This document shows positions 6,206 to 57,229 of a stretch of DNA of 64,000 bases, piece by piece. The notes under the pieces are model-generated. The model had not been told where the DNA came from and did no database searches. It worked only from the letters and a program-made list of their open reading frames with translations. The translations under genes were made by a program, and so were the position numbers. The stretch comes from Candidatus Magasanikbacteria bacterium GW2011_GWC2_37_14 (GTDB taxonomy: Bacteria; Patescibacteriota; Patescibacteriia; Magasanikbacterales; UBA922): contig LBSX01000007.1 of the NCBI GenBank assembly GCA_000990355.1, positions 441 to 64,440 of the forward strand, written 5' to 3'. Each line of letters begins with the position of its first letter. Position 1 is the stretch's first letter.

Positions 6206-6396
6206 TTTCAACTATTTATAATAATTTTACCCTCACACCTATGTATAGGTGTTGGGGTTTATAAACACTTGAGTCACCCTTGGTCCTCCAAGGCCAAGGT
6301 GCTCCTAAGTAATTAGGAAAAGATCGAAAAGAACGTAGATTGGTTGCCCCGGAGCTGGGGCGAGATAGACGGCTTGGCGCCATCAAGAACGGAAGG

Positions 6397-7257
6397 TTAT
6401 TCGTCGCTACACGCGTCACCAACCCCGTTGCCGTCGGCGTCGGCCTGATCGGGGTTGTAATCGCAATTGCAATTGTCGTCATAATCGTCAATACCATCAC
6501 CATCGGAATCCCCCCAGGGATCAGTGATAGAATGGGGGGCGTTGGGGCAATAGTCGCAAATATCACCCAATCCGTCGTGATCCGAATCTTTTTGACCGGG
6601 ATTGTATTCGTAACTATTATTGCAATTATCTTCATCATCTCGGACACCGTCGCCGTCGACATCGGAGTCGCACGCGTCGCCCACCCCATCGCCGTCGCCG
6701 TCGTTCTGTTTAAAATAATCCCAAGGTCTTTCGTCCCCCGGTCCCTGGAGCTCCTCGAAGTTATGTAGCGAACTACAGTGACCCCAATCATCTTCGGTTT
6801 CATTGCGACACCCCATCACGTCAAATATATTGGGGCAGTTGTCGCAAGCGTCGCCGATGCCGTCGCCGTCCATGTCACCCTGATCCAGGTTGTCAATGCC
6901 CGGGCAGTTGTCTTCTGCATCGGGCAGGCCGTCGTTGTCGTCGTCGGCTTCACAGGCATCGCCCACACCGTCGCCGTCAGCGTCGGCCTGATTGTGGTTG
7001 CTGATCTTGGGACAGTTATCGCAGGCGTCGCCAACACTATCGCCGTCAGCGTCGGCCTGGTCGTAGTTGTCCACGGTTGGACAGTTTTCACATTTGTCGC
7101 CCACGCCGTCGTAGTCAGTATCGACCTGCGCAGGGTTGGCGATCTGCTCGCAGTTGTCATCATAGTCCACGACGCCGTCGCCGTCCGTATCCGGGACTTC
7201 GCACGCCGCGAACAACAGGGCCGCCAGCACCAGCACAAACCAATCGCACTGCTTCAT
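6397..7257 (-). CDS. G+C-rich secreted lipoprotein-like protein built of thrombospondin type-3 (Ca-binding) repeats
   Basis: The ATG for MKQCDWFVLVLAALLFAAC (lipobox-like) is preceded by GGAGG. It has 8 or more repeats of D-x-D-x-DG-x-G-D-x-CD-NCP-x(3)-N-x-x-Q. Third codon positions are almost all G/C. Confidence 0.7.
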   Translation of the reverse strand: MKQCDWFVLVLAALLFAACEVPDTDGDGVVDYDDNCEQIANPAQVDTDYDGVGDKCENCPTVDNYDQADADGDSVGDACDNCPKISNHNQADADGDGVGDACEADDDNDGLPDAEDNCPGIDNLDQGDMDGDGIGDACDNCPNIFDVMGCRNETEDDWGHCSSLHNFEELQGPGDERPWDYFKQNDGDGDGVGDACDSDVDGDGVRDDEDNCNNSYEYNPGQKDSDHDGLGDICDYCPNAPHSITDPWGDSDGDGIDDYDDNCNCDYNPDQADADGNGVGDACSDE

Positions 7258-7285
7258 CACACCCTCCGAGCAAAAGGTTCGCCCA

Positions 7286-7324
7286 AAAGCACGCCCGTGC
7301 CTCCGAGCAAGAACAAGAACAGAA
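7286..7324 (-). promoter_or_regulatory. conserved ~40-nt 5' leader element, copy A (aaagcacgcccgtgcctccgagcaagaacaagaacagaa on the plus strand)
   Basis: Identical to copy B at 9753-9791. It lies 25-30 nt upstream of the start codon of the TSP3-repeat gene. Confidence 0.6.
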
Positions 7325-7366
7325 CCAAAACTAACGCAAAGCGCAAAACTAACTAAATTCAAACTA

Positions 7367-7413
7367 CCAGCTTTTTGTAGCTGGGACCTTTCATTGTCAA
7401 AGAGCGAGAAAAG
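7367..7413 (-). promoter_or_regulatory. upstream architecture copy A: hairpin ccagctttttgtagctgg plus box TTGTCAAAGAGCGAGAAAAG (read TCTCGCTCTTTGACAA on the coding strand)
   Basis: The same hairpin-plus-box arrangement recurs at 9820-9868 upstream of the second GC-rich gene. On the coding strand the box contains TTGACA. Confidence 0.45.
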
Positions 7414-7462
7414 AATACAACAATTATATGCTTTTCTCATTCTTTAAACAAAATTCATTTCT

Positions 7463-7510
7463 TCGAGGGGGAGCCGAACACGCTTTCCAGCATGTCAGCT
7501 CCCCCTCGTC
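7463..7510 (-). terminator. hairpin terminator of the Cys-rich protein gene (cgagggggagc ... gctccccctcg)
   Basis: An 11-bp perfect stem downstream of the stop at 7625, followed by a T-rich run on the minus strand. Confidence 0.6.
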
Positions 7511-7624
7511 CGCAGTGTATAGTTACCACCATTCCGATTACTCGGTTTAGTGAATTTAAATCTCAAAGATCAATTAGCATTTAATTATACAGAGCGCTTA
7601 CTCTGTGTTGTCTATATTTGTAAA

Positions 7625-9724
7625 TTAATTGCACCAGGGGTCGAGCTGGTTGCACTGCCCATCGTCCCAGTTGCACAGGGCGGTGCAGGGGTTGCCATCG
7701 GGCAGGCACTTGTCCTGGTACACGCACTGGCCCGTTTCCGGGTTGCACGACCCGTTCTGGCAATTGTTACTCTTGCAGGTGTCCTCCTGGTAATGACACC
7801 TGTTGTTCCAGATGTTGCATTCGCCCATGTACATCACCGACTTACCTGTAACGGTACAGACTCGAGTGCCCAAGGTCGGACACTCCTCATGGGTGTCACA
7901 GGCCTCACAGCCCGGCACCGGCAAGTTGGTGCAAGCACCATTCTTATAATCACAGGCGTCGTCTGTACAGGGTTCGCCGTCGTCACACTTTTCCTGGAAA
8001 GCACAACTTCCAGTTTCCGAGTTGCAATAACCAGTTCCACAGGCGTCCGAGGAGCAGACGTACTCGTGCGTACGGCACCTATGCCCCCAGGCCTCACATT
8101 CCCCCGTGTAGGAGATTGCCAAGGAGCTGCCCCCGCACATCTGCGTTCCCGACGACGGGCACTGTTCGTGGGTGTCGCAGGCCACGCAACCTGCGACGGT
8201 CAGGTTCGTGCACGCGCCCGTGCTGTCGTCGCACGAATCGTCGGTGCAGGGGTTCTCGTCGTCGCACTTGTCGTTCTGGATACACCCTCCTTTCGTCGGG
8301 TTGCACTCAGCGACCTGACACAGACCATAGGCCTGACAAACTACGCCCGGGTAAGTGCAGACATGGTCCACACACTTGTTGTCGGTGCAGGGGTTCTGGT
8401 CATCGCATTTGTAGTCCCCGTCGCACCAGATCGGGTCGTTTTCGCACCGGTAGCCATTCTGGACTTCTGCGTCCGGAATGCAGATCTGGCCACCCCAATC
8501 ACACCGTTTATTGTTGGAGCACTTGTTGCCGTCATCGCTCCATTCACAGTAATCGTCAGTACAGGGGTTCCCATCGTTGCAGTCGGCGGTCACAAGACAC
8601 GGCACACAGCCGACCGTTTCCCGACAGCGCAGGCCCTGCCCGCAGATGGCGTCCGACGCCTTGTGGGTGCACACGCACAGCGAACCCTGAGGCTCGGCGG
8701 CGTCGATCGTACAACCCACTTCGTCATCTTCGCACACTGGTGGCGCGTAAAAACACTTGTGATCGGGCCCGCAAATATCGCCCGTACAAGGGTTGCCGTC
8801 GTTGCAGTCGCCCTCGTCCAGGCAGCACCCGGGAATCTTCTCGTTCTGGCACCCCTTCCCCTCTTCGCAGAAGTCGTTGGTGCACTCGTTGTTGTCGTCG
8901 CACGACACCTGAGCCTGCCCGCAACCAAGGTACAATTCGCACTTGGCCTCGGTGCACACCGAGCTGTCGCTCGGGCACATGCCATCCATGGGCAAGTGCT
9001 GGCACAGCCCGTTGCTGTCGCATAAGTCGGTGGTGCAGTTGATGCCGTCGTCGCAATCGGTCTTGGTCTCGACGCATTGGCCGTCTACGCACGCCACGCT
9101 GGCACACTTGGACGACGCGATGCATTCCGAGAAACCGTTCCCACACTTGACTTTCTGATGGATGCAACCGATCCCAACGACACACATGTCGATGGTCGTG
9201 AGTTCGCCATCCTCGCACAGCACGGGAAAGAACTGGCAACCAACGCCGGTCACGCACTTGGCCTGGTTGCACTCGTCGCCCAAACCCAAGCACGCGTTCT
9301 CGTTGACGTGACTGAAGTTGCAACCGGTCGCCGGCAAGCACTCGTCGGCCGTGCACGGATCGTCATCGTTGCAGGTGAGCGCCTTCTGCTGGCACCCGGC
9401 CTGCAGATCGCACTCGTCCATGGTACACGCGTTGTTGTCGTTGCAGGCGACGTGGTTCGGGGTATGGTAACAGCTACCATTGTCGCACCGCTCGATGGTG
9501 CAGAGGATGCCGTCGTCGGCGCAGTCGCCATCGAAGTCACACTCGGACGGGTGATTGTCCACCTCCACCTTGTCGACTTCAGCGACCTCCTCCACCACCT
9601 CGACTTCCTGGGCCACGTCGGCCGTACCGCCGTTGCCCGTGTCCGACGTGTTGACGGAGACGCCGCACGTCACGGACACCAACGCCACCAGCACCAGCGC
9701 GAAGAACTTCACGAAGCGGTTCAT
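7625..9724 (-). CDS. G+C-rich secreted cysteine-rich repeat protein (~100 Cys; repeats C-x-D-D/N-x-N-x-C-T-x-D-x-C resembling the Myxococcus cysteine-rich repeat family)
   Basis: The ATG for MNRFVKFFALVLVALVSVTCG (signal peptide) is preceded by GGAGG. Repeated motifs include CNDGNPCTDDYC, CDDQNPCTDNKC, CDDENPCTDDSCD and CDDGEPCTDDACD. The plus-strand ORFs here are antisense artefacts. Confidence 0.7.
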   Translation of the reverse strand: MNRFVKFFALVLVALVSVTCGVSVNTSDTGNGGTADVAQEVEVVEEVAEVDKVEVDNHPSECDFDGDCADDGILCTIERCDNGSCYHTPNHVACNDNNACTMDECDLQAGCQQKALTCNDDDPCTADECLPATGCNFSHVNENACLGLGDECNQAKCVTGVGCQFFPVLCEDGELTTIDMCVVGIGCIHQKVKCGNGFSECIASSKCASVACVDGQCVETKTDCDDGINCTTDLCDSNGLCQHLPMDGMCPSDSSVCTEAKCELYLGCGQAQVSCDDNNECTNDFCEEGKGCQNEKIPGCCLDEGDCNDGNPCTGDICGPDHKCFYAPPVCEDDEVGCTIDAAEPQGSLCVCTHKASDAICGQGLRCRETVGCVPCLVTADCNDGNPCTDDYCEWSDDGNKCSNNKRCDWGGQICIPDAEVQNGYRCENDPIWCDGDYKCDDQNPCTDNKCVDHVCTYPGVVCQAYGLCQVAECNPTKGGCIQNDKCDDENPCTDDSCDDSTGACTNLTVAGCVACDTHEQCPSSGTQMCGGSSLAISYTGECEAWGHRCRTHEYVCSSDACGTGYCNSETGSCAFQEKCDDGEPCTDDACDYKNGACTNLPVPGCEACDTHEECPTLGTRVCTVTGKSVMYMGECNIWNNRCHYQEDTCKSNNCQNGSCNPETGQCVYQDKCLPDGNPCTALCNWDDGQCNQLDPWCN

Positions 9725-9752
9725 CGTATCCTCCGAACGAACGTGTGGTCTC

Positions 9753-9791
9753 GAAAGCACGCCCGTGCCTCCGAGCAAGAACAAGAACAGA
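9753..9791 (-). promoter_or_regulatory. conserved ~40-nt 5' leader element, copy B
   Basis: Identical to 7286-7324. It lies ~30 nt upstream of the ATG of the Cys-rich gene. Confidence 0.6.
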
Positions 9792-9819
9792 AACCGGCAC
9801 AAAAACAACACCAAAATTA

Positions 9820-9868
9820 ACCAGCTTAAATGGCTGGATTAGCTAGGTTGTCAAAGAGCCGAGAAAAA
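9820..9868 (-). promoter_or_regulatory. upstream architecture copy B: hairpin ccagcttaaatggctgg plus box TTGTCAAAGAGCCGAGAAAAAA
   Basis: Paralogous to 7367-7413. The hairpin is followed on the coding strand by a U-rich tract, which is attenuator-like. Confidence 0.45.
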
Positions 9869-9920
9869 ATAATTTTATTACTCTTTCTTCGCTCTTTGGC
9901 TAAATTTTCTTTAACAGCAG

Positions 9921-9949
9921 ATTGTAACAAACAAATGTCTGTTTGTCAA
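9921..9949 (-). promoter_or_regulatory. consensus sigma70-type promoter, TTGACA-17-TACAAT on the minus strand, pointing at the Cys-rich gene
   Basis: Read on the reverse complement: ttgacaaacagacatttgtttgttacaat. Confidence 0.5.
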
Positions 9950-40300: not shown

Positions 40301-43300
40301 AAATTAAAATTATTTTTTAAAATTAAATTTACTTCATCTAATGTTTTTTCTGCTACTTGTGTTGAATGAATAAATTCTAACTTGTTAATTTTTCCATAAA
40401 ATAATCTAGAATTGTCATCTAATGAAGAAATAATATTACCTATTCTAAATGGCAAACTCTCTTTTTTTATTAAATCCGGATCTAAACCCAACTGGATTTT
40501 CGGAATAATTGGTAATGGATTACCCCCTTCACTTAAATAAACATTCATTTTATTATCCTTAATTTCAATCTTTAAATTATAAAGATTGGTAGAATTGTTT
40601 AATAAAGCCACATTCGCTCCATAATCACGCATCGACTTATCAAGAAAAACAGCCGAATGAATAAACAAATATCTTTTTACAATACCATCATTTTTTACTT
40701 GTTCATTTATATACACTTGTTCTTTGCCATCATTCCTAAAAAATAAAAATCTATATTTCATCCACAAATCACCACTTTCAATAAAACCAACATCCGATGA
40801 GGTTGTCAAATTATCTAGTTCAATATCAAATTCAATGGCAGTATCATTTAACAAAGAATAATCACCATTTGTGTCATTGTAAACTTTTGCTTCTGCCAAA
40901 GTATTTATACTATTACCAAGATTTAAACCAATGATATCCGCTAAATCAGCACTCTCGGTTACTATTTTATAAACTGTTTTACCACCAATAAATTTGGTAT
41001 CAATATTTTTTGGTATATTAACTATCACTTGAGTATCTTGCCAATTTTCCGAACACTGTGGTGGTAAACCAACAGTGGTTAATTCTTTACATTTAGTAGA
41101 ATCATAATTTATTGCACAAGCTTTGGCGTCGTTACTATTACCTGCCAAATAAACATGTCCACTAGAACCAAAATTAGACCCATAAATGGTAATTAAACTA
41201 CCAGGGGTTGTGGTAACTGGATCAATAGAACTAATAATTGGTGTTTTAACTGAACCATCACTCAAAATTTCAAATGGCACGCCATTACTATTTTCACCAT
41301 TCACTGTAGCTACTACCCCAACTTTACCTGCACTCAAAACTGGCACAAAAGACCTTACCACAGCATCAGACCAACCAGCACCAACAATTATGGCTTGTAC
41401 CCCACCAAATTTCATGGTGCTACCACTTTGGGTATCACCCAATCCTTTGCCCTGTATTACTACTTGCGCCTTAGATTCTGCTTCTCCTGGTGTAATCGCA
41501 CAAAGACCAGGACGTATAGCGTCATTTTTTAAAAACCAACCGTCATTTGGCCCTGGCATTACACCCCATTCAGGAGTAGTAAGCCCAGCAGTGTCATCAC
41601 TTGGTTTAATTGATTCGCCAGCAATCGTTAAAGTTTTAGCTGATTCTAATTTAATATCACTCAAAAAATTACGATCTAAATCAATATCAGCGGGCACTTC
41701 AATAATTACCCATTGGTCATGCCAAACATTTGTACCTTCTCCGCAATCAGCCAAATTTACATCTAGCCAATCTCCAGCACTTACTTCTCCATCTTGATTT
41801 TTATCTATTCCAAAACTCACTTTGCCTTTGGTACTACCAAAATTTCTTCCCAAAATTGTTACCCAATTACCAGCTCCCCCGTCCATTGGTTCTACATTTT
41901 CAATCAAAGGAAAGGGGCGACAAATTTTGTCATTAACATTTCCTGCGCCAACAGGGTCAATACATTTAAAACTGTAAGCGCAATCAAGGTCATCATGGCA
42001 CGAAGCCCCATCACCACCTCCACAAGAACCACCAACATCTGTCCCTGTTTCATTGCCATTTTTTATTCTATCTTTGCAATGAGCTCCAACCAACATATAG
42101 GTACTAGTAACTTCGGCAAACTTACTATCAATATCATTTCCTCGCAAAGTAAGAGAAATACGCTGTGGAACAATTAAATTTTCTGGAAAAAATACACGTT
42201 GACTAAAATTATAAGGATTATCTATAGGCGCATCCGAAGTGCTAGCAGGGCCATTAAAATAACCATAAATTCTCTCTCCTAAATTTTCAAAACTTCCATT
42301 ATTGAGTGTTAAACCTACATAACCAGCGCCACTTTCATCACTTTCACTGGTTCCAAAATAATATGCACTACCAACTGGCAAACGATCATCAGCTATCTCT
42401 TCTCTCACTCCACTTTTGTTTACCATTTCTACAACTAAGGGAGTTAAAATTGGGGCTAGACTATCTTTTACCGCACTCGTAGTTACGGTAAACTCTGCTT
42501 CGGCACTAAAATCTCCACAACTAGTTTTTAATTCCAAATTATAACCATCAATATCTTTGATATTGGGGCTAACAATTACTTGGTAAGTACCAGCTGGCAA
42601 ACAACTGGTGCTATCTTCACATTTTGTTTCACCAATATAAGTAGCCTGTATTAAACTATTGGCATCTGCCAACTCTCTACCCAAAACTTCAAAACTAAAT
42701 TCTTCGGTAGAGGTAACATTATTACGTAAAATTGTTAGATAATTTTTTATTTCATTACTACTCATGTTTTGCAGTTTTCTGCTAAATGTTACCCGAATAA
42801 CTGCATTATTCATTTGGGTATTGGTAGTTTTTGGGGTAATGCTTTGTACGACAAAATGTTTGTCTTCACAAGAACATAGAGTAGGAAATTCTCTGCAAAA
42901 AACACTCTCACATTCATCACGATTTTCCAAAACATATTTTAAATCGCGACAAGACAAATTGTCTCCATTGCCATCACCAAAACCTGTAGCGTCGGATAAC
43001 TGATTAATTACAAACTGAGCAATAGCCAAAGCTGAAAGAATAATCATTATACCAATCGCGGCATTAATTAAAATCTTTCTTGCCTGTCCAACTTTTTCTT
43101 CATTTCCCGCCGAAGTCATATAAACAAAACCACCATAAAGCATTAAGCCTAGGGCAATAATACCAAGTAAACCCAAAATAGCTCGGATAATCTGGGCAAT
43201 AATTAAACGGATATCAGTAGCTGGAAGATCTAAACTACCCCCGATTCTGTTTAAGCCAAAAGCATCTTGAGCAAAAACATTTGTTTTGAATAACAAAAAC

Positions 43301-43365: not shown

Positions 43366-43377
43366 AAAAAACTATTC

Positions 43378-45549
43378 TTATTTGAAAATAACTGTTTGAG
43401 AAATATCTTCGGTTTTTAAAGCCGACAAACATTTAGCAACTGTGGAGGTAACTTGTAAATCAGTATCGGTTGTTTGTACACAACCAGTATCTTTGGCACT
43501 CGCTGTTTCTACACCTACACAATTTTCTGTTGACAGAATACTACCATCATCTTCGTTGTAAGTAACTATACAAGCAGTTGATTGTCCTTGTGCCCCTTGT
43601 ACCACCGGGCCTCTTCCTGGATAAACACAATTTTGTACCAAATTTTTTATTGTACTAGGGATAGAAGGAAAATAATACAAATCTGCATTGTTTGGCCCAA
43701 AAATTCGGTGGTCCAGTTTGGTAACAGTTTTTCCAGCAAAAGTTTCGGAAATTGGACAAAACCAAATTGGCTCTACACCATTTACCGCAACCGGATATTC
43801 GTCTAATTTTATTCCATAAACAGAGTCTAGCCACATCCGACTATTAAAATGTATTTTTAAAGGTGCATTGTCAGTTACATTCTCCTCATCAATATCTGGT
43901 TCCACAGTTTGGATATAAGGTGAGGTACGATCTATTTTATTTATAATATTAAAATTCCAATAAAAATTATCTGGATTTCTTTCATTATCATTAATTAAAA
44001 GTGGATTACTAATTGTCGGTTTATGCGGTGTAGCTAATCTACCTTGGTTATTGTCATCCAAAGCATTACTCGCCATATCCATTGCACCCGAAAAAGGCAT
44101 ACCCTCAAATGGTAATTGTGCCCCTGGCATTAAATCTGCCGTACGTACCAGTGCCTTAAAGGGTTTGGTACAATTTTCTGCGTTAGAGGGGCAATCCAAT
44201 GGCAAACAATACATAGTTTCGCCACAACTATTTTGTCCACAAGCCAAACTTGAAACAAATTCCAAAGTACGGTAACGATTGGATAATTTCCAATTACCCA
44301 AAGTAGTAGTTGGAGTAACTCCAAAATTAGTATTTAAAATAACATTGGCAAAACTAGTGGGGTCAGCAATTATTTGTCCTTGCACACCAGTAGGATCCAT
44401 GGCCTCACTAAAATTTATTTGGATAATAGAATTACGTGCCGGTGTATCTTTGCCTGTTTCATTGCCAGTGGGATAAGTATCTACTACATATGGTGGAGTA
44501 AAATCTATTTGAGTATTGGTCTGAAAATTCCATTCATAATCCTTACGGCCAATATTCTTGGAAAACACTCCAGGTGTATCTCCTGGGGCTGGTTCTTTGT
44601 ATAAAATATTATTGGTTAAACGCACACTATACCAAACATCAGTGGTTTCACTGCCAATAAAATCATAAGGTTTAAAAACAAAAGTACGAGTATTTTTTTG
44701 TGCACCATCTTCATAAATAGTAAGAGCACTAGCCGTTACCAATTGCCCACCATTGGCAGTAATACTACCAAGATTGGCAAAATAAGTGTCAGTTGCCATA
44801 AAAATACCAATTGTACTAGTATTCATGGCGTCACATTCTGTAAGCCTGTTAATTTTATTATCTTTATTAACATCCAAGCAATCACCATAATAAGGAATAG
44901 CAGGAACCGCTCCACCAAACTCACAAGTAGTGGTAGGTTTATTATCTCCACCCCAACAACTACTATTCGTATTTACAATAATCGAAGCTGGATCAATTGG
45001 CTCAAAAAAAGTAACAACTATTGAGGTATTGCGTGGCACAGCTGTTTGATCACGGAAAGGATAATGGTCTTTTACCACTTGGCCCAAAGCGCCACTACCA
45101 GCAAAAGTGTTAATAATTGGCACCCCAGCAGCACCACGCCCGTTGTTTTGATTGCCGTCCGAAAGCATGTTAATTATAAATTGAGCAATAGCAAAAGCCG
45201 ACAAAATTATTGCCAAGCCAATCACGGCATTGATCATAATTTTTTTGCCTTTTGACACTTCTTCTTCGTTGCCACCCGAAGTCATAATCACATAACCAGC
45301 ATACATCATTATTACCAAAGCAATAGTTCCCAGCAATCCAAAAATTGCTCGAATGATTTGAGCAATAATTATACGAATATCAGTTTTTACCAAACCAATA
45401 CTATTTTCTACTGGTTGCAAACCAAACAAGTCATTGTTTTGTGCCTGCGCTGGCAAAACTTGCCAAAACAAAAAAGCCACCACAAAAACTAACAGCCCAA
45501 GGATGGCGGCTTTTAACCAAGAATGATTTTTATTTATCCAAGGCAGCAT
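43378..45549 (-). CDS. 723-aa secreted protein sharing the N-terminal membrane-hairpin domain of the giant protein, with Big_5-like (..IQINFSEAMDPTG..) domains
   Basis: N-terminal residues 50-125 align residue-by-residue with the giant protein (IRIIIAQIIRAIFGLLGTIAL.. vs IRLIIAQIIRAILGLLGIIAL..). Confidence 0.8.
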   Translation of the reverse strand: MLPWINKNHSWLKAAILGLLVFVVAFLFWQVLPAQAQNNDLFGLQPVENSIGLVKTDIRIIIAQIIRAIFGLLGTIALVIMMYAGYVIMTSGGNEEEVSKGKKIMINAVIGLAIILSAFAIAQFIINMLSDGNQNNGRGAAGVPIINTFAGSGALGQVVKDHYPFRDQTAVPRNTSIVVTFFEPIDPASIIVNTNSSCWGGDNKPTTTCEFGGAVPAIPYYGDCLDVNKDNKINRLTECDAMNTSTIGIFMATDTYFANLGSITANGGQLVTASALTIYEDGAQKNTRTFVFKPYDFIGSETTDVWYSVRLTNNILYKEPAPGDTPGVFSKNIGRKDYEWNFQTNTQIDFTPPYVVDTYPTGNETGKDTPARNSIIQINFSEAMDPTGVQGQIIADPTSFANVILNTNFGVTPTTTLGNWKLSNRYRTLEFVSSLACGQNSCGETMYCLPLDCPSNAENCTKPFKALVRTADLMPGAQLPFEGMPFSGAMDMASNALDDNNQGRLATPHKPTISNPLLINDNERNPDNFYWNFNIINKIDRTSPYIQTVEPDIDEENVTDNAPLKIHFNSRMWLDSVYGIKLDEYPVAVNGVEPIWFCPISETFAGKTVTKLDHRIFGPNNADLYYFPSIPSTIKNLVQNCVYPGRGPVVQGAQGQSTACIVTYNEDDGSILSTENCVGVETASAKDTGCVQTTDTDLQVTSTVAKCLSALKTEDISQTVIFK

Positions 45550-46036: not shown

Positions 46037-46288
46037 TTAATATTTTTTTTGTTCTAATGGATCTTCGCGTAAACGACCAGTTTTGCGCAAGTATTCGGTT
46101 TTGGCAACCTTTTTAATATACTTCACGCGATTTTTATTTTGTTCGTTCTTACTTTTCTTTTCTTCAAAGAACTGGATTTTTCTAGCCTGTAATAATTTTC
46201 CAGACTGTTGCCAGCGTCTTTTTACTCTACGTAAAAAAGCATCGAAAGATTCTCCTTTTTTTCTTTTAATTTCTGACACAATATTCAC
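46037..46288 (-). CDS. rpsU: 30S ribosomal protein bS21
   Basis: 83 aa, basic, with the F(D/E)xALRRFKR-like core (ESFDAFLRRVKRRW). Confidence 0.75.
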   Translation of the reverse strand: MNIVSEIKRKKGESFDAFLRRVKRRWQQSGKLLQARKIQFFEEKKSKNEQNKNRVKYIKKVAKTEYLRKTGRLREDPLEQKKY

Positions 46289-46352
46289 CTCCCCCCCCTA
46301 TTAAAAATTAATTAACTTATTAAACCTATATTACACTAAATCTACGCAAAAG

Positions 46353-47771: not shown

Positions 47772-47776
47772 AAAGA

Positions 47777-48406
47777 TTATAAATTATAATTAGGAATAGA
47801 AAATTTAGTTATTTTATTTAATGGCCAGCCACGCAACCAAGCTCGACCAACAATTTCTTCTTTTTTAACTGGTCCAAAACGCCGAGAATCATAACTAGCA
47901 CCACGGTTATCTCCCAAAACAAAGTATTCATCGGCACCCAAAGTTTGCACCAAAGAACCAGTAGTCTTTTGATCCAAATAAATTTCTTCAACCAAAACTC
48001 CTTCGGGATGAGTTTCATTATAAATAATAATTTTATTGTTATCTATTTTTACTCGTTCGCCGGGCAAACCCACGACTCTTTTTAAATAATAATCACTATT
48101 GGATGGTGAATGAAGCACAATTACTTCACCTCTTTCGGGTGGACGAAAACGATAAGATAGTTCGTCAATTATTAAATAATCATTTTCATGAAAATTTGGC
48201 TCCATGGATTGCCCTTTTACATAAAAAGGTTTGAACAAAAAATAACGCACCAAACCAATGGTAATGACTGCCAAAATCGCCATTTTTAAAAAATCAAAAA
48301 AAATAGCACTAAACTTTTGTAAAAAAGTTTGCTCTTGATGGCTAACCACAGCCGAATTTATTAACTTTTCTGCTGATTCTTCTATTTTATCCTCTTCTTG
48401 GTTCAT
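47777..48406 (-). CDS. lepB: signal peptidase I
   Basis: N-terminal TM, GQSMEPNF (Ser box), VVGLPGERV and LGDNRGASYDSR. Confidence 0.9.
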   Translation of the reverse strand: MNQEEDKIEESAEKLINSAVVSHQEQTFLQKFSAIFFDFLKMAILAVITIGLVRYFLFKPFYVKGQSMEPNFHENDYLIIDELSYRFRPPERGEVIVLHSPSNSDYYLKRVVGLPGERVKIDNNKIIIYNETHPEGVLVEEIYLDQKTTGSLVQTLGADEYFVLGDNRGASYDSRRFGPVKKEEIVGRAWLRGWPLNKITKFSIPNYNL

Positions 48407-48464: not shown

Positions 48465-48731
48465 TCAATTAGAAATTGTCTGTTTAATAAAATTTTCAAC
48501 ACTCAGTTCAGTCAATTTTACTTTAATTTTTTTTATTTTGTATTCTATCTGTCTAGCTTGTTTTATATCTTCAAATTCCCAAAATCTTTTTATTTTCCAG
48601 GGGCCTTTACCACAGGTAGATTTCGTTAACCCTTGATTATGTTCCTTTTCTCTGCTAAAAATATCAACAGTACTACCTAAATAAGGCCGCAAACAATTCG
48701 GACTTTCCAATAAATAAATATAACCTTTCAT
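48465..48731 (-). CDS. GIY-YIG nuclease domain protein (YhbQ/UPF0213-like)
   Basis: 88 aa with GYIYLLES...YLGST...REKEHN. Its start codon lies 1 nt from the tRNA-Ile 3' end. Confidence 0.8.
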   Translation of the reverse strand: MKGYIYLLESPNCLRPYLGSTVDIFSREKEHNQGLTKSTCGKGPWKIKRFWEFEDIKQARQIEYKIKKIKVKLTELSVENFIKQTISN

Positions 48732-48732
48732 G

Positions 48733-48806
48733 TGCGCGCGCCTGGAATCGAACCAGGGACCTCGTCATTATCAGTGACGCGCTCTAACCATCTGAGCTAC
48801 GCGCGC
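48733..48806 (-). tRNA. tRNA-Ile (anticodon GAU); CCA not encoded
   Basis: GCGCGCGUAGCUCAGAUGGUUAGAGCGCGUCACUGAUAAUGACGAGGUCCCUGGUUCGAUUCCAGGCGCGCGCA forms a cloverleaf with anticodon loop cuGAUaa. Confidence 0.85.
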
Positions 48807-48811
48807 ATAAT

Positions 48812-48879
48812 TTAATATAGTCGAACCTCCGACCTTCCCGACACTATCGGGACGCTCTAACCATCTGAGCTAGCCGCCC
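48812..48879 (-). pseudogene. 3'-truncated tRNA (acceptor 5' strand, D-arm, anticodon arm with loop auAGUgu, T-stem 5' half and T-loop only)
   Basis: GGGCGGCUAGCUCAGAUGGUUAGAGCGUCCCGAUAGUGUCGGGAAGGUCGGAGGUUCGACU, then AT-rich sequence. No complementary T-stem 3' half or acceptor 3' strand is present. It lies 5 nt from tRNA-Ile. Confidence 0.6.
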
Positions 48880-48892
48880 TTTTAATTTACTG

Positions 48893-48966
48893 TAGGCGTA
48901 TCCCGAATTGAACGGGAGACCTTTGCAATGTCAATGCAACGCTCTAACCAGCTGAGCTATACGCCC
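48893..48966 (-). tRNA. tRNA-Val (anticodon GAC); CCA not encoded
   Basis: GGGCGUAUAGCUCAGCUGGUUAGAGCGUUGCAUUGACAUUGCAAAGGUCUCCCGUUCAAUUCGGGAUACGCCUA forms a cloverleaf with a G1-U72 pair. Confidence 0.85.
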
Positions 48967-48974
48967 TTGGTTAA

Positions 48975-49175
48975 ACAACTGCCTGCCCGCCGTGTTTGCT
49001 GGTGCCACGGCGCCGAATGGCTTGCGGTATGAACCGAGAGGCGGGAGCATGAGTCCGATTATAGCAGAACTTTTTAATAAAATCAAGTGTACCAGAGTGA
49101 ATAAAAAAAATCAAGAAATCTTCCTACAAAAACACCCGCTTTTTACAGCAGGTGTTTTTCGTGATCCTCGGCCCA
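48975..49175 (+). ncRNA. candidate ~200-nt small RNA ending in a rho-independent terminator (aaacacccgctttttacagcaggtgttttt)
   Basis: GC-richer structured segment with stem cccgcc/ggcggg. Only a noise-like 74-aa ORF is present. The terminator hairpin plus T-tract at 49138-49172 was read directly. Identity unknown. Confidence 0.25.
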
Positions 49176-49520
49176 GGGTAGTGTCTATTCATACCCCTGA
49201 CGAAGCAGGTGGGTGATCGCACCTCTGGCCCACAGGCCAAAGAAATATTGATCTCCCTAGTATAAATATTTGCGGATATGAAATTCACTACCCAGCTCTA
49301 GGATCACTTATATTATATAAAATCAAAATACCGCTGTCAAGCTGAATTTTAAAAGTGCTTGCCCTATACCCTTGTGGTATAGGGTCAAATAATTTTCCGC
49401 CCGTAATAATTATTAATTCTAGTTACTAATTATTACGTGCGGGGGTAATGCATCACCTCCTTGACCCCTACACTTTTGCGAACGCGAATTCTTGCTCGGA
49501 CACCCGCCCTTGATGGACGA

Positions 49521-49722
49521 TTACTCTTCGCCGCGCCGCTCCTCGAAGAACAGTGCGATGGCGTTGTGGTCGCCCCTCCGCGTAAGACGACGGAGAAGAT
49601 CCCTCGAAGCGTCGGCAGGCACGTAGGCCACCAGAACCCCCTCCTGGGCCACGTTGTGCTGGCCCTGAACCACTGCGTCACCCGCAACCGTCGTCGTCAT
49701 CGTCCCCTCCTCATCGGCCATT
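49521..49722 (-). CDS. G+C-rich 66-aa hypothetical protein (MADEEGTMTTTVAGDAVVQGQHNVAQEGVLVAYVPADASRDLLRRLTRRGDHNAIALFFEERRGEE)
   Basis: GGAGG lies 7 nt upstream of the ATG. GC3 is almost all G/C. No recognised family. Confidence 0.4.
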
Positions 49723-49875
49723 TGTAGACCTCCTGCCCACGAATCCCTCCCGCGTCGTGGCCCTGTGCCAAAACGCGTAAGAAAAACCAAATTCTTGGTT
49801 GCTCTTGGCGCTTTGGCACAAAAAAATAATGCATTACCCATTTTTCTCCTTATTTTTTAAAGAACAATTAACAAA

Positions 49876-49900
49876 TAAAACACCCTGCTTTTATTTGCAG
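49876..49900 (-). terminator. hairpin caccctgc..gcagggtg downstream of ndk
   Basis: 8-bp stem with a flanking T-run. Confidence 0.5.
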
Positions 49901-50672: not shown

Positions 50673-50825
50673 ATAAATAGCTAATTTAAGAGTAATTTTA
50701 GTGCATATATTATAGCACATTTTAAAGGTTTTGTCAATAGTGGATAAAAATCACCTTATTCTTGACAACAACTAAATATTACTGTTTAATATGATAGAAC
50801 CAACATCTCCAATGCGGGAGGGTCC

Positions 50826-50941
50826 ATGGCGGGAGGAGTCAAGAGCTCGAAGGGCCACAAGGCCAAGAGGAAGAAGGGCTGGACCAGGCACTCGAACGGC
50901 CCGAGCCGCGGAGGCTCGAACAACCGTAAGGGCGCCAAGTA
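50826..50941 (+). CDS. G+C-rich 38-aa Lys/Arg-rich peptide (MAGGVKSSKGHKAKRKKGWTRHSNGPSRGGSNNRKGAK)
   Basis: GGGAGGG lies 6 nt upstream of the ATG. It is followed by a 28-bp perfect-stem hairpin at 51040-51098 and a terminator at 51098-51128. Confidence 0.35.
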
Positions 50942-51097
50942 ACGCGACGTTCTTCGCGTCAAGCGCCCCTGGTCCACAACCAGGGCCACATTCTCAAGTC
51001 CGCTGCCGCCGCGGAGATTAACCAGGTTCGTTCTGTTCCTGCGTTGGTCTCCACAGCTAAAATATTTTTAGTTGTGGAGAACGCAGGAACAGCTAAA

Positions 51098-51128
51098 TAA
51101 AAACATCCGCCGATGAGGCGGATGTTTT
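51098..51128. terminator. bidirectional terminator aaaaacatccgccgatgaggcggatgttttt
   Basis: Perfect stem flanked by A5 and T5. It serves the 38-aa gene on plus and the 706-aa gene on minus. Confidence 0.7.
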
Positions 51129-51137
51129 TAAAAATTT

Positions 51138-53213: not shown

Positions 53214-53271
53214 ATATTTAAAATTAAAATTATTTATATAATAAATATAGTATAGCAAAACCTATTTTTTT

Positions 53272-55620: not shown

Positions 55621-56480
55621 TCTACCACCAAAATTACCTTGCGTCCATTTTTTACATCACCATTATTCCAATCATGAATAGCATTCATTAAATCTTGATA
55701 TTTATATTTAAAATCTTTGCCAAACTGTGTGCCTGGATCATTGGTAATAAAATTTTCTTCATCATAACCTTTAATAATCAATGCATGGTAAATTGGTCCA
55801 CCATTCCGAAAATTTGGATTAGGTAACACTTTACCGTTCGCTACTACCAACACTGGTTTATTATTTGCAATAAATTTTTTTATATCATCAACAGTTGGAT
55901 TTTCAATAATTTTAATTTGTCCTACTAAATTTAAATGAAAATATTCCTCTGTCATTTGTTTGATATCAACAATTGGGATACTTAACCCCCAGCCCTTATC
56001 CTCTTCCCATTTTACCATTTTCAAAATTTCATCACGCGAAAAAATAGGGCTTAAATTATAACCTTTATAATAGGCATCAAGCATAAGTAAAGCCGCTTCT
56101 TCACACGCATCTTGCCACGGCTGTTCCCAATTTTTTTCTGGCGCTTGTGAGGTAAATGGAACATTCAAAATAAATTCTTTTGGGAGTATTGTGCTGTCAT
56201 TCCCTACTTCGGTACCAGATGTCGAGCTTGCCTGCCGAGGAGGCAGGGAATCCCTTGCTTCTGTAATTTTGACCGTGCTTGTAATGCTTTCAGGTGTTAA
56301 TGCTTTAATGTCTTCACTGCTATCTGTTATCTGTTGTTTGCTATCTGAAGATACTGTTTCATAATTAATTATTATCTCATCATTCACAAACATTTTTCCA
56401 AAAATATAAATCGTCCCTACCAAAAAACACCCGCTCAAAATCAGGCAAATTGTGTTTAATATTGTATATTTTGACTTCAT
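55617..56480 (-). CDS. C39-like (papain-fold) peptidase domain protein with N-terminal membrane anchor
   Basis: VPFTSQAPEKNW...DACEEAALLM (catalytic Cys) and ...IYHALIIKGYD (His). An in-frame palindromic insert lies in the linker. Confidence 0.65.
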   Translation of the reverse strand: MKSKYTILNTICLILSGCFLVGTIYIFGKMFVNDEIIINYETVSSDSKQQITDSSEDIKALTPESITSTVKITEARDSLPPRQASSTSGTEVGNDSTILPKEFILNVPFTSQAPEKNWEQPWQDACEEAALLMLDAYYKGYNLSPIFSRDEILKMVKWEEDKGWGLSIPIVDIKQMTEEYFHLNLVGQIKIIENPTVDDIKKFIANNKPVLVVANGKVLPNPNFRNGGPIYHALIIKGYDEENFITNDPGTQFGKDFKYKYQDLMNAIHDWNNGDVKNGRKVILVVE

Positions 56481-56518
56481 TATTCTATTATATAGTGTAA
56501 AACTTAAAAAAACAAAAA

Positions 56519-56569
56519 CCGCCCTCTGCTTGATTTCCTTTTATAAAGAAATCCAGCAGACTGGGGCGG
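56519..56569 (-). terminator. imperfect long hairpin (ccgccctctgcttgatttcc / ggaaatccagcagactggggcgg) after the GC-rich 172-aa gene
   Basis: Preceded on plus by aaaaacaaaaa, which reads as a T-run on the minus strand. Confidence 0.5.
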
Positions 56570-56590
56570 TTCTCCCTCTTTGTCTGCGTT

Positions 56591-57088
56591 CTAACGAACT
56601 ACGCGGACAAATGAGGATTTGTTGGCAGATTTTGCCTTGAAAGAACGCGAGGGGGGGGTGCTTTTGATACCCTTTTTAGAGGGTTTGGGTTTTTTACCAC
56701 CGGGAAGGGCGGTAAAAAGAGAGGCTCGAAGCACTTGTGCTGTGTCATCGTCTTCGGGAACTTCGTCAACGAACCGAAGTCCGACGAGAGGCGGCTTGAC
56801 TTGAACAGCAGGTGCCTGGCCCATTACGCCGGCTTTCTGTCTCGCCAGTCTGGCCAGTTCTTCCTGCTTGCTCTTCAGCTCACTGCGCAAACGCGCCAGA
56901 ACAGGTTCGTCCTTTTCTTCCACTTCGTGGAAATTGGGATGCCCGTTATGGCACGCTTTCTTGTAGACCCGAACCCAGGAACCTCCTTGAATCCCTTCCG
57001 GGTTTTTGTAGTGCTCAGAGAAGTCAGAATCCTCGAACACCACAGTTTGTCTACACTTCCCGTGTCTACAGGTTATTCTCGCCTGCAT
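56591..57088 (-). CDS. G+C-rich protein with N-terminal Cys/His zinc-binding-like region, central coiled-coil and Lys/Pro-rich histone-H1-like tail
   Basis: MQARITCRHGKCRQ...KKACHNGHPNFHE; LARLRSELKSKQEELARLARQ; KKPKPSKKGIKSTPPSRSFKAKSANK. The start is ambiguous: ATG at ~57088 or TTG at 57109. Confidence 0.45.
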   Translation of the reverse strand: MQARITCRHGKCRQTVVFEDSDFSEHYKNPEGIQGGSWVRVYKKACHNGHPNFHEVEEKDEPVLARLRSELKSKQEELARLARQKAGVMGQAPAVQVKPPLVGLRFVDEVPEDDDTAQVLRASLFTALPGGKKPKPSKKGIKSTPPSRSFKAKSANKSSFVRVVR

Positions 57089-57229
57089 CTTGCGGACCCC
57101 CGTTTTCAAAAAACGTCCTGGTTTCGGCGGGGTTCAAAGCACCAGCCTCCTTTCAAATTTATTATATAAACAATTGATTTTTTATGCAATATCAGTTAAA
57201 ATCAATCTGTAAATCAGGATTATCAGTAA

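What the first reader, a model, noticed from the sequence alone, without database searches (positions are those of the whole stretch)
6216..57130. Mosaic of short G+C-rich coding islets in an AT-rich genome, each with a canonical GGAGG Shine-Dalgarno
Eight or more short blocks (6216-7330, 7500-9800, 13455-14330, 14400-14760, 15000-15800, 49440-49850, 50790-51060, 56590-57130) are visibly far richer in G+C than the flanking DNA; this is by eye and was not computed. Third codon positions are almost exclusively G/C. Every gene in them has a strong GGAGG-type RBS 4-8 nt upstream, whereas many backbone genes I checked (clpP, nrnA, hsp20, ftsZ) have no obvious SD. The elevated G+C is largely confined to the CDS plus leader, while promoters and terminators around the islets are AT-rich like the host. 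This fits recent horizontal acquisition of individual genes from a high-G+C donor, or an unusual recoded gene set. The junctions are continuous and carry terminator hairpins, which argues against simple chimeric assembly, but that should still be checked.
Basis: partly seen in the sequence, partly recalled or inferred. Interest (0 to 1): 0.75.

Follow-up and report, generated by a model that had tools for sequence, protein, structure and literature searches.

The report
Foreign GC-rich gene islets in Magasanikbacteria
An AT-rich, very small uncultivated bacterium (a Magasanikbacteria relative) carries about eight gene-sized GC-rich inserts that look horizontally acquired, and these inserts have classical ribosome-binding sites that almost all of the host's own genes lack.

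Summary
The compositional mosaic is real. All eight blocks have GC 0.51-0.60 against a 0.35 background. Four-fold-site GC3 is 0.56-0.82 in islet genes and 0.10-0.44 in 38 backbone genes. It is not an assembly artefact: contigs labelled with different samples and assemblies are 99.9-100% identical across every islet.

The islets encode two Cys/Asp-rich secreted lipoproteins (Dicty_CTDC and TSP_3 repeats), a VKOR-like membrane protein and five small ORFans. One listed block is mostly tRNA-Asp plus non-coding DNA.

Related Magasanikbacteria keep the backbone order HSP20-VanW-ClpP-NrnA-SMC. The VanW|ClpP gap differs in each: empty, a different GC-rich gene, or an AT-normal gene. Together with GC-type amino-acid composition and the lack of close homologues, this favours repeated horizontal acquisition. 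The events have different ages, because islet H predates a species split. No donor was identified.

The SD contrast also holds: mean SD:anti-SD duplex is -10.2 kcal/mol for islets and -1.6 for the backbone. The main backbone exceptions are vanW and rpsU, whose extended SD is conserved in a distant relative. This recalls the SD-blind ribosomes of Bacteroidia and is the most interesting lead.

The parts
7625..9724 (-). Islet gene A. It encodes a 699-aa Cys-rich lipoprotein with a signal peptide, a lipobox and Dicty_CTDC repeats. GC is 0.60 and four-fold GC3 is 0.81.
   Evidence: ORF and sequence. Pfam Dicty_CTDC E=1.7e-31. GC3. Apart from a 100%-identical entry, the nearest homologue in 5.8 billion proteins is 31% identical.
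9725..9949 (-). Promoter of A (TTGACA-17-TACAAT, 9949-9921) and a 5' UTR of about 190 nt. The UTR contains the hairpin CTCGGAGGCAC-GGGC-GTGCTTTCGAG and a GGAGG SD 6 nt before the ATG. The AT-rich to GC-rich junction lies inside the UTR at about 9800.
   Evidence: Promoter scan. Sequence. Fold z=-4.2. Alignment with the B leader.
6397..7257 (-). Islet gene B. It encodes a 286-aa lipoprotein made of thrombospondin type 3 (Ca-binding) repeats. Four-fold GC3 is 0.75 and decays towards the 3' end.
   Evidence: Pfam TSP_3 E=2.9e-40. NCBIfam MtsC-like hit of 162 bits, below the 350-bit cut-off. Sliding GC3.
7258..7425 (-). 5' module of B, homologous to that of A. A 39-nt stretch is identical (7286-7324 = 9754-9792). 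B shares with A the TTTTCTCG(G)CTCTTTGACAA motif, the CCAGC/GCTGG hairpin, the SD context and the signal-peptide DNA (76% identical).
   Evidence: (families D15, D16).
6168..6396 (-). GC-rich 3' UTR of B, with a bidirectional terminator (6168-6209) shared with clpP.
13909..14304 (-). Islet gene C. It encodes a 131-aa VKOR-like membrane protein with a CPGC motif. It has a TTG start with GGAGG 6 nt upstream. The AT-rich promoter lies at 14331-14360.
   Evidence: Pfam VKOR E=4.9e-8, 33.6 bits against a 27.5-bit cut-off. Sequence. Homologues of 54-55% identity only. L019 context.
13531..13860 (-). Islet gene D. It encodes a 109-aa, very basic protein with a C-terminal CxC...CxxC zinc-ribbon-like motif. 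It probably forms an operon with C. GC3 is 0.74.
   Evidence: No family match. Only insignificant RanBP2-type zinc-finger resemblance in the PDB.
13406..13495 (-). Long AT-rich terminator hairpin that closes the C-D unit. The engB promoter follows.
   Evidence: Sequence. Spurious miRNA-like Rfam hits mark the hairpin.
14587..14661 (-). tRNA-Asp(GTC). It accounts for part of the listed block 14400-14760.
   Evidence: Rfam 66.6 bits and ARAGORN.
14390..14597 (-). Exact 19-bp direct repeat of the tRNA-Asp 3' end (14579-14597 and 14390-14408). The repeats flank a 170-nt GC-rich, strongly folding spacer. This may be an att-like scar or a small RNA.
   Evidence: Repeat search, 0 of 100 shuffles reached 2 matches. 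Fold z=-6.85.
15032..15481 (+). Islet gene E. It encodes a 149-aa ORFan with an N-terminal transmembrane helix. AAGGAG lies 8 nt upstream. GC3 is 0.56.
   Evidence: No family, PDB or viral match.
15482..15860 (+). GC-rich non-coding tail after E. It contains a long-range hairpin terminator and one copy of the dispersed CCTCCCC...GGGGAGG hairpin element (15654-15690).
   Evidence: The element is 97% identical to L012 4486-4522.
49521..49841 (-). Islet gene F. It is an ORFan of 66 aa (ATG at 49721, GGAGG 7 nt upstream, GC3 0.76) or 106 aa (ATG at 49841, AAGGAG 4 nt upstream).
   Evidence: Coding status is predicted only.
50826..50942 (+). Islet gene G. It encodes a 38-aa basic Lys/Gly/Ser-rich peptide. 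GGGAGGG lies 3 nt upstream and GC3 is 0.87. It has its own AT-rich promoter and two downstream hairpins that extend to about 51130.
   Evidence: Coding status is predicted only.
56591..57088 (-). Islet gene H. It encodes a 165-aa ORFan. A 72%-identical orthologue sits at the same locus in a sister species and is under purifying selection.
   Evidence: dN/dS 0.24; dS 0.83 against tgt 0.92; GC3 0.52 and 0.50 against 0.26 and 0.27.
46037..46298 (-). Backbone context for the SD contrast. This is a bS21-like gene (rpsU) with a GTG start and an extended SD, GGGGGGGGAGGTGA (46298-46285).
   Evidence: Pfam S21 E=2.7e-4, below the family cut-off. Duplex -15.4 kcal/mol. The L005 orthologue has GAGGAGGTGA plus GTG.
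10058..10285 (+). Conserved unknown small RNA that marks the VanW|ClpP gap. It has a perfect TTGACA-17-TATAAT promoter (10023-10051) and a terminator (10265-10285). The islets inserted next to it.

Best explanation
The window comes from an AT-rich, SD-poor bacterium of the Candidate Phyla Radiation related to Candidatus Magasanikbacteria. Its conserved backbone has been punctuated several times, at different dates, by gene-sized pieces of DNA from one or more GC-richer, SD-using organisms.

Each piece survives as a minimal expression unit: an SD-bearing leader, one or two coding sequences, and sometimes a GC-rich 3' UTR. Each unit is driven by an AT-rich sigma-70-type promoter and closed by an AT-rich terminator of the recipient's style.

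Shown:
- the compositional and codon discontinuity;
- the GC-type amino-acid make-up of the islet proteins;
- the SD contrast with the backbone;
- identity of the junctions in independently labelled assemblies;
- different occupancy of one syntenic gap in four related lineages;
- vertical inheritance and purifying selection of one islet gene (H) since a species split.

Inferred:
- the surrounding foreign non-coding DNA was lost through the deletion bias of a streamlined genome;
- the GC3 differences reflect age, from A and D (about 0.8) through F and G to C, E and H (about 0.55-0.6), that is, amelioration in progress;
- A, B and C form a functional set: Cys-rich and Ca-binding surface lipoproteins for attachment, plus a VKOR-type disulfide-forming enzyme;
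- the promoter, UTR and signal-peptide module shared by A and B was copied within this genome.

The vehicle and the donor are unknown.
For: Composition.

Amino-acid bias: the GARP/FYMINK ratio is 0.88-2.88 in islet proteins against a backbone mean of 0.69.

SD contrast.

Not a chimera: L001-L003, L020 and L022-L025 are 99.9-100% identical across all islets. They carry ENA, JGI and Rifle ANAN16 labels with different sample accessions.

The backbone order HSP20-VanW...ClpP-NrnA-SMC is conserved in relatives. The VanW|ClpP gap contains:
- a small RNA plus A plus B in the window;
- an unrelated 809-aa gene of GC 0.61-0.74 in L004 and L013-L015;
- only the small RNA in L005;
- an AT-normal 1326-aa ORFan in L016.

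Dicty_CTDC genes in two other Magasanikbacteria are also GC 0.60-0.70, against backbones of 0.32-0.45.

The H orthologue has dN/dS 0.24 and dS like the neighbouring tgt.

A, D, E and H have no close homologues.

In Patescibacteria generally, HGT and genomic islands are documented at up to 13% of genome length (PMC12455944).
Against: - No donor was found. The best non-self hit to A is 31% identical, so transfer is inferred from composition and synteny only.
- No integrase, transposase or shared recombination site lies inside or next to the islets in the window. The only candidate scar is the 19-bp tRNA-Asp repeat.
- C keeps elevated GC3 (0.69 and 0.58) in two lineages whose ppsA dS is saturated (2.28). 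Simple neutral amelioration after a single ancient transfer does not predict this.
- GC-rich Dicty_CTDC genes recur in several Magasanikbacteria. This could mean maintained composition instead of repeated transfer.
- F and G rest only on ORF, SD and GC3 evidence.
Confidence: 0.68

Rival explanations
1. Maintained 'recoded' gene class. The islet genes would be long-standing residents, or circulate only among Magasanikbacteria. Their GC-rich codons and SD leaders would be kept by selection, for example to place them under a separate translational regime or to stabilise their mRNAs.
For: - The C homologue in L019 is still GC3 0.58 and SD-led despite saturated divergence.
- H is GC3 about 0.5 in both sister species.
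- Dicty_CTDC genes are GC-rich in three separate Magasanikbacteria.
- GC-rich genes in L004, L009, L011 and L019 mostly also carry GGAGG-type SDs, while their backbones are SD-poor.
Against: - The same syntenic gap is empty or holds unrelated genes in relatives.
- The islet proteins also have GC-type amino-acid composition.
- Most are ORFans.
- A rough relaxation estimate (inference, not a tool result) fits H decaying from GC3 of about 0.8 at the split.
- The backbone giant repeat protein is AT-rich (GC3 0.22).
Confidence: 0.14
2. Remnants of a GC-rich phage, plasmid or integrative element. Each islet would be what is left of a larger mobile element after deletion.
For: - The small basic, zinc-ribbon and ORFan proteins (D, E, F, G, H) resemble mobile-element cargo (inference).
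- There is a 19-bp duplication of the tRNA-Asp 3' end next to C and D.
- An rve-family integrase lies about 0.4 kb beyond the window start in L002.
Against: - PHROGs and PADLOC gave no hits, apart from two low-complexity matches for the L004 809-aa protein.
- There are no relatives in IMG/VR.
- The repeats are only 189 bp apart and do not enclose C or D.
- There are no integrase or structural genes inside the window islets.
Confidence: 0.1
3. The small islets are GC-rich structured non-coding RNAs, and their ORFs are chance open frames in stop-poor DNA.
For: - Block 14400-14760 is indeed a tRNA plus a structured spacer.
- The stretch 48685-49310 holds tRNAs and a 6S-like RNA.
- GC-rich DNA gives long ORFs in several frames.
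- F and G have no homologues tested.
Against: - GC3 exceeds GC2 with codon periodicity in C, D, F, G and A.
- SD motifs sit at the correct spacing, far beyond chance.
- A, B and C have Pfam domains.
- H has dN/dS 0.24.
- No Rfam family matched.
Confidence: 0.06
4. Chimeric metagenome assembly that joins reads of a GC-rich organism to a CPR contig.
For: The data are metagenomic. Some contigs end in or near islets: L012 at window 10159, L025 inside H, and L024 just after G.
Against: - Eight or more contigs from differently labelled samples and assemblers are 99.9-100% identical through every junction.
- The Crystal Geyser relative shows its own islet in four assemblies.
- The sister species has H at the same junctions.
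- The A and B leaders mix AT-rich and GC-rich parts within one conserved module.
Confidence: 0.02

Closest known systems
Horizontally acquired genomic islands or islets with amelioration (Lawrence and Ochman model, from my own knowledge); genomic islands and single-gene transfers reported in groundwater Patescibacteria (PMC12455944)
   Same: The islets have atypical GC and codon usage. They show insertion polymorphism in a conserved backbone and carry ORFan or surface-protein cargo. Their atypicality is graded, consistent with different ages.
   Different: The units are single genes of 0.1-2.2 kb instead of multi-gene islands. They lack integrases and have no flanking repeats, apart from one tRNA-end duplication. 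The foreign DNA is trimmed to leader plus CDS under recipient-type promoters. The inserts differ from the backbone in translation-initiation signal as well as in composition. The cited study detected mostly Patescibacteria-to-Patescibacteria transfers and needed a sampled donor. Here no donor is sampled.
SD-blind ribosomes of Bacteroidia with rpsU autoregulation (PMC7797042, PMC9976891, PMC13000453)
   Same: The genome is almost devoid of SDs. The bS21 gene carries an unusually long SD (GGAGGTGA core, -15.4 kcal/mol) that is conserved in a distant relative.
   Different: The phylum is different (Patescibacteria). The 16S 3' tail and the bS21/bS18/bS6 pocket residues were not examined. Several non-ribosomal genes, namely the islets and vanW, also carry good SDs. 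In Flavobacterium johnsoniae rpsU is essentially the only such gene.
Myxococcus MtsC-type TSP3 cohesion proteins and Dicty_CTDC cysteine-rich repeat 'extracellular matrix' proteins of Myxococcota and other bacteria
   Same: B consists of TSP_3 repeats and scores 162 bits on the MtsC model. A consists of Dicty_CTDC repeats. Both have lipoprotein signal peptides, which suggests a role in surface adhesion.
   Different: B is below the MtsC cut-off of 350 bits and lacks a MYXO-CTERM tag. The best hits to A are about 30% identical at repeat level, so no orthology or donor can be claimed.
Variable surface-lipoprotein families with a conserved 5' module (Mycoplasma vsp/vlp, Borrelia upstream homology box families; from my own knowledge)
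   Same: Two adjacent lipoprotein genes share the upstream element, the 5' UTR (39 nt identical), the SD context and the signal-peptide DNA. Their mature parts are unrelated.
   Different: Only two copies were seen. There is no invertible element, no silent cassettes and no evidence of switching.

Membership tests
Horizontally acquired islet | Base composition and codon usage outside the range of the resident genes | tested here: met
   Four-fold GC3 is 0.56-0.82 in islet genes against 0.10-0.44 in backbone genes, with no overlap. GC is 0.51-0.60 against 0.35.
Horizontally acquired islet | Presence/absence or content polymorphism at a conserved syntenic site in relatives | tested here: met
   The VanW|ClpP gap holds A plus B in the window, a different GC-rich gene in L004, nothing but the small RNA in L005, and an AT-normal ORFan in L016.
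Horizontally acquired islet | A closer homologue in a compositionally matching donor lineage than in relatives of the recipient | tested here: not met
   The best non-self hit to A is 31% identical, spread over many phyla. C has only 54-55% homologues, one of them in a related CPR contig. H is found only in the sister species. B, D, E, F and G were not searched effectively, because the concatenated query failed.
Horizontally acquired islet | Mobility signatures such as an integrase, a transposase, or att or target-site repeats | tested here: inconclusive
   The only candidate is a 19-bp duplication of the tRNA-Asp 3' end, with copies 189 bp apart, beside C and D. No shared repeats lie at other islet borders. 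Not every window ORF was scanned for integrase or transposase domains.
Integron gene cassettes | A shared attC-type imperfect inverted repeat at the 3' end of each cassette, and a nearby intI gene | tested here: not met
   No repeat family is shared by the islet 3' ends. Each islet has its own promoter. No integrase was seen among the ORFs examined.
Bacteroidia-type SD-blind translation with rpsU autoregulation | Genome-wide scarcity of SD sequences | tested here: met
   In the window, 32 of 38 backbone starts are weaker than -6 kcal/mol. In the window and four relatives, 6-11% of low-GC3 ORFs have any strong SD even when the best candidate start is taken; two further loci of only six ORFs each gave 17% (L011) and 50% (L019).
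Bacteroidia-type SD-blind translation with rpsU autoregulation | An extended SD upstream of rpsU, conserved across the lineage | tested here: met
   The window has GGGGGGGGAGGTGA, 5 nt, then GTG. L005 has GAGGAGGTGA, 6 nt, then GTG, with a 52%-identical protein. The S21 assignment rests on a sub-threshold Pfam hit of 21 bits against a 27-bit cut-off.
Bacteroidia-type SD-blind translation with rpsU autoregulation | A canonical anti-SD present but sequestered by a bS21/bS18/bS6 pocket (signature Tyr54, less basic bS21 C-terminus) | not testable with these tools
   No 16S rRNA, bS18 or bS6 gene lies in the window. Sequestration needs ribosome structure or biochemistry.
VKOR family (gene C) | Pfam VKOR domain above the gathering score, with a CxxC active-site motif | tested here: met
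   33.6 bits against a 27.5-bit cut-off, covering model positions 55-133 of 134. A CPGC motif is present. The N-terminal part of the domain is not matched.
MtsC cell-cohesion protein (gene B) | NCBIfam equivalog score of at least 350 bits and a MYXO-CTERM sorting tag | tested here: not met
   161.8 bits. The C-terminus ends ...GVGDACSDE with no tag.

The most novel reading that the evidence does not exclude
Magasanikbacteria may, like Bacteroidia, have ribosomes that normally ignore Shine-Dalgarno sequences. The evidence is an SD-poor backbone and a conserved extended SD on rpsU. If so, the SD-led GC-rich acquired genes would form a translationally insulated class. They would be read efficiently only by a ribosome subpopulation with a free anti-SD, for example ribosomes lacking bS21. 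Foreign surface and ORFan genes would then be kept at low or conditional expression. A related possibility is that the GC-rich donor is the symbiont's own host, which would make the islets a marker for identifying that host.
Probability: 0.1. Interest if true: 0.85.

Novelty: new variant of a known kind. Interest (0 to 1): 0.55.

Why it matters
Candidate Phyla Radiation bacteria are uncultivated, have minimal genomes and are thought to live attached to other cells. How they gain new surface functions, and how they initiate translation, is largely unknown.

This locus shows gene-by-gene import of compositionally foreign DNA into a hot spot of a streamlined genome. The pattern recurs in several Magasanikbacteria. 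The cargo is plausibly involved in attachment: Cys-rich and Ca-binding lipoproteins plus a disulfide-forming enzyme.

The locus also exposes two translation-initiation regimes in one genome: an SD-less backbone, and SD-led imports together with rpsU. If that split is functional, it would extend the Bacteroidia SD-blind ribosome paradigm to a second, very distant phylum. It would also suggest a way for cells to quarantine or condition the expression of acquired genes.

Tried and rejected
- One homology search used a concatenation of C, D, E, F, G and H to save capped searches. It returned nothing, not even self-hits. I treat this as a method failure (candidate cap), not as evidence of absence. 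As a result D, E, F and G have no proper distant-homologue search.
- PHROGs, NCBIfam and PADLOC gave no informative hit for the small islet proteins.
- IMG/VR scans with A, D, E and H found no relatives.
- PDB sequence searches for D, E and H gave only insignificant hits.
- AlphaFold models of E (mean pLDDT 54.5) and H (37.4) were too poor for fold searches, so none were run.
- Rfam at permissive thresholds found no family for the islets or for the conserved small RNA at 10058-10285.
- Biased gene conversion in repeat genes was considered and rejected. The non-repetitive small genes are equally GC-rich, and the 3995-aa repeat protein of the backbone has GC3 0.22.
- An integron-like cassette array was rejected because there is no shared 3' element and each unit has its own promoter.
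- The leader shared by A and B was searched in all fetched loci. It occurs only in the same species.
- My literature searches found no description of GC-rich islets or of SD usage in Magasanikbacteria or other CPR bacteria. Absence from this library is weak evidence.

Full report
**1. The observation**

The window has GC 0.379. A 120-nt scan gives a background of 0.347 (sd 0.056). It recovers the same blocks as the only long segments at GC 0.5 or above, plus 48685-49835.

A greedy ORF map shows backbone GC3 of 0.13-0.35. At four-fold sites the backbone pools to 0.29, with a per-gene range of 0.10-0.44. The islet genes pool to 0.73, with a per-gene range of 0.56-0.82 and no overlap. Every two-fold codon pair is inverted between the two sets; for example, AAC is 16% of Asn codons in the backbone and 80% in the islets, and TTC is 6% versus 79% of Phe codons.

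**2. What the blocks contain**

- Gene A (7625-9724, minus strand) encodes a 699-aa lipoprotein built of Dicty_CTDC cysteine repeats.
- Gene B (6397-7257, minus strand) encodes a 286-aa lipoprotein built of thrombospondin type 3 repeats.
- Gene C (13909-14304, minus strand, TTG start) encodes a VKOR-like membrane protein.
- D, E, F, G and H are small proteins without family matches.
- Block 14400-14760 is not protein-coding. It holds tRNA-Asp, its leader, and a 170-nt strongly folding spacer bounded by an exact 19-bp duplication of the tRNA 3' end.
- The unlisted GC-elevated stretch at 48.7-49.3 kb holds tRNA-Val, a truncated tRNA-like sequence, tRNA-Ile and a sub-threshold 6S-like RNA.

Evidence that the small ORFs are genes is uneven:
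- H has a 72%-identical orthologue with dN/dS 0.24.
- C has a Pfam domain and homologues.
- D, E, F and G rest on codon-position GC, SD placement and ORF integrity only.

**3. The ribosome-binding-site contrast**

With a generic anti-SD, the eight islet starts average -10.2 kcal/mol and the 38 backbone starts average -1.6 (Mann-Whitney p=1.8e-5). Seven islet starts reach -9.5 or stronger, which only 3.5% of random windows inside the same GC-rich genes do. The SDs are therefore not a by-product of composition.

The motifs are GGAGG for A, B, C and F, GGGAGGG for G, AAGGAG for E, GGAAGG for D, and only GGGGG for H.

Most backbone genes have nothing recognisable. Several have a TATAAT box 4-12 nt before the ATG, which suggests leaderless mRNAs. 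The two clear backbone exceptions are vanW and the bS21-like gene.

**4. Not an assembly artefact**

Exact-protein look-ups retrieved contigs labelled as ENA ERZ27254745, JGI 3300025308 and 3300025309, and Rifle ANAN16 samples SAMN03202995 and SAMN03202999. All are 99.9-100% identical to the window across A, B, C, D, E, F, G and H. The only difference in the left part is a 43-bp indel inside a hairpin-repeat element at 6151/6152. I could not map reads.

**5. Who it is, and what relatives show**

The VanW protein places the window near Candidatus Magasanikbacteria. The order HSP20-VanW...ClpP-NrnA-SMC is kept in relatives with 44-53% VanW identity. The gap between vanW and clpP always contains a conserved small RNA, found here at 10058-10285 on the plus strand, with no Rfam match. 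Otherwise the gap differs:

| Lineage | Content of the VanW-ClpP gap (besides the small RNA) |
|---|---|
| Window | A plus B |
| Crystal Geyser lineage (L004, L013-L015) | An unrelated 809-aa gene of GC 0.61-0.74, inserted on the other side of the small RNA |
| L005 | Nothing (385 bp in all) |
| L016 | An AT-normal 1326-aa ORFan |

This is direct evidence that the gap is a hot spot receiving different genes in different lineages.

The Crystal Geyser locus has two further GC-rich single genes with AT-rich promoters and GGAGG- or GGGGGG-type SDs. Dicty_CTDC genes in two more Magasanikbacteria are GC 0.60-0.70 in backbones of 0.32-0.45. The mosaic is therefore a trait of the lineage, not of this genome alone.

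**6. Ages of the islets**

A has no homologue above 31% identity, apart from a 100%-identical copy, among 5.8 billion proteins. That database does contain the sister species' H orthologue. A is therefore probably a late, species-specific gain, and it has the highest GC3.

H lies between the same neighbours in the sister species (L021). Its dS (0.83) matches tgt next door (0.92), so it predates that split. GC3 is about 0.5 in both copies against 0.26-0.27 for tgt. A rough two-state relaxation estimate (my inference) puts its GC3 near 0.8 at the split, which is compatible with amelioration.

C is harder to explain. A 54%-identical homologue lies near tRNA-Asp and ppsA in L019. Its GC3 is 0.58, it has a GGAGG SD, and its neighbouring genes are also SD-led. 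The ppsA dS between the two genomes is saturated at 2.28. Either C moved separately into both lineages, or its composition is maintained. This keeps the 'recoded class' rival alive.

**7. Origin**

Islet proteins are richer in Gly/Ala/Arg/Pro and poorer in Phe/Tyr/Met/Ile/Asn/Lys than backbone proteins (ratio 0.88-2.88 against a mean of 0.69). Synonymous recoding alone would not produce this.

No donor could be named. Dicty_CTDC and TSP3 repeat proteins are common in Myxococcota, and B scores half the cut-off of the Myxococcus MtsC model, but the identities are at repeat level only. There is no sign of phage origin.

HGT and genomic islands are already documented in groundwater Patescibacteria (PMC12455944). 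I found no report of gene-sized GC-rich, SD-led islets.

**8. Architecture of A and B**

The two adjacent genes share an upstream module of about 160 nt. It comprises:
- a hairpin whose arms differ by compensatory changes;
- the motif TTTTCTCG(G)CTCTTTGACAA;
- a CCAGC/GCTGG hairpin;
- 39 identical nucleotides containing a decoy GGAGG inside a stable hairpin;
- the real SD;
- 76%-identical signal-peptide DNA.

Their mature parts are unrelated. The junction from AT-rich to GC-rich DNA lies inside this shared UTR, so the module was copied within this genome after acquisition. C is a disulfide-forming enzyme type, which would suit the roughly 120 cysteines of A. This functional link is inference.

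**9. The side observation with the most potential**

The bS21-like gene has a GTG start preceded by GGGGGGGGAGGTGA (-15.4 kcal/mol). The orthologue in the distant relative L005 has GAGGAGGTGA followed by GTG. Backbones of the window and four relatives are SD-poor, while two short six-ORF loci (L011, L019) gave higher fractions. This combination defines the Bacteroidia system. There, bS21, bS18 and bS6 hide the anti-SD, and ribosomes lacking bS21 translate the SD-led rpsU (PMC7797042, PMC9976891, PMC13000453). Whether the same holds here cannot be tested with this window. If it does, the SD-led imports would form a separately translated class.

**10. Verdict**

The horizontal-transfer reading is the best supported, but as several events of different age from unidentified donors. 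It is a variant of a well-known phenomenon. Its interest is raised by three things: it recurs across a CPR lineage, the foreign DNA is trimmed tightly to expression units, and two translation-initiation regimes coexist in one genome.

Noticed in passing
window 46037-46298 (-); L005 20290-20552 (+): The bS21-like gene has an extended SD (GGGGGGGGAGGTGA, -15.4 kcal/mol) and a GTG start in an otherwise SD-poor genome. The SD core GGAGGTGA and the GTG start are conserved in a distant Magasanikbacteria relative. This mirrors rpsU autoregulation in SD-blind Bacteroidia.
   Followed up: partly
window 10023-10285 (+); L014 about 14948-15235; L005 about 11740-12050; L012 3' end: A conserved small RNA gene of about 230 nt lies between vanW and clpP. 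It has a perfect TTGACA-17-TATAAT promoter and an intrinsic terminator. Its core is CTGTATCCACGACAAGCATGG...GGCTCCGGCTC...CTTCTTGGrTACAG. It has no Rfam match, even at E<=1.
   Followed up: partly
window 14390-14597 (-): An exact 19-bp direct repeat of the tRNA-Asp 3' end flanks a 170-nt GC-rich spacer that folds far better than shuffles (z=-6.85). The 3' part of the spacer mimics the 3' half of the tRNA. It may be an att scar or a tRNA-derived small RNA.
   Followed up: partly
window 48807-48880 (-): A truncated tRNA-like sequence with intact D and anticodon arms (apparent anticodon AGU) lies between tRNA-Val and tRNA-Ile. It is cut off after the T-loop. ARAGORN and Rfam do not call it.
   Followed up: no
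window 49159-49308 (-): A 6S RNA-like sequence (35.9 bits, E=4.7e-5, below the 46.4-bit gathering score) lies behind a good promoter, upstream of the tRNA cluster.
   Followed up: no
window 6130-6165 and 15654-15690; L012 4486-4522; L001 6634-6676: A dispersed hairpin element, CCTCCCC-TTATA-GGGGAGG, is present in the sister species as well. Other assemblies of the same species carry 43 extra bp at window 6151/6152 inside this element. This is a strain variant or an assembly collapse.
   Followed up: partly
window 12725-12745, 4442-4465, 56481-56500, 47772-47790: Several backbone genes (hsp20, smc, the C39-like peptidase gene, hisS) have a TATAAT box ending 4-12 nt before the ATG. This suggests leaderless mRNAs. 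Five of 38 meet a strict criterion.
   Followed up: partly
window 14775-14939 (-): A Lys-rich ORF of 40-54 aa (MRKKINAIKKVERAKAKIKRDKAKLKRLKK...) sits behind a perfect consensus promoter (14956-14928). It is apparently co-transcribed with tRNA-Asp and has no family match.
   Followed up: no
window 31378-45549 (-): A 3995-aa AT-rich repeat protein containing TSP3-like repeats in host codon usage is followed by a protein with T4SS-pilin and Big_5 domains. The sister-species contig L012 carries a VirB4-like ATPase. This may be a surface or DNA-transfer apparatus relevant to gene uptake.
   Followed up: no
window 61202-61492 (-): A 96-aa backbone ORF has GC-type amino-acid composition (GARP/FYMINK ratio 2.33) but GC3 of only 0.13. 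It may be a fully ameliorated old import or simply a Pro/Gly-rich protein.
   Followed up: no
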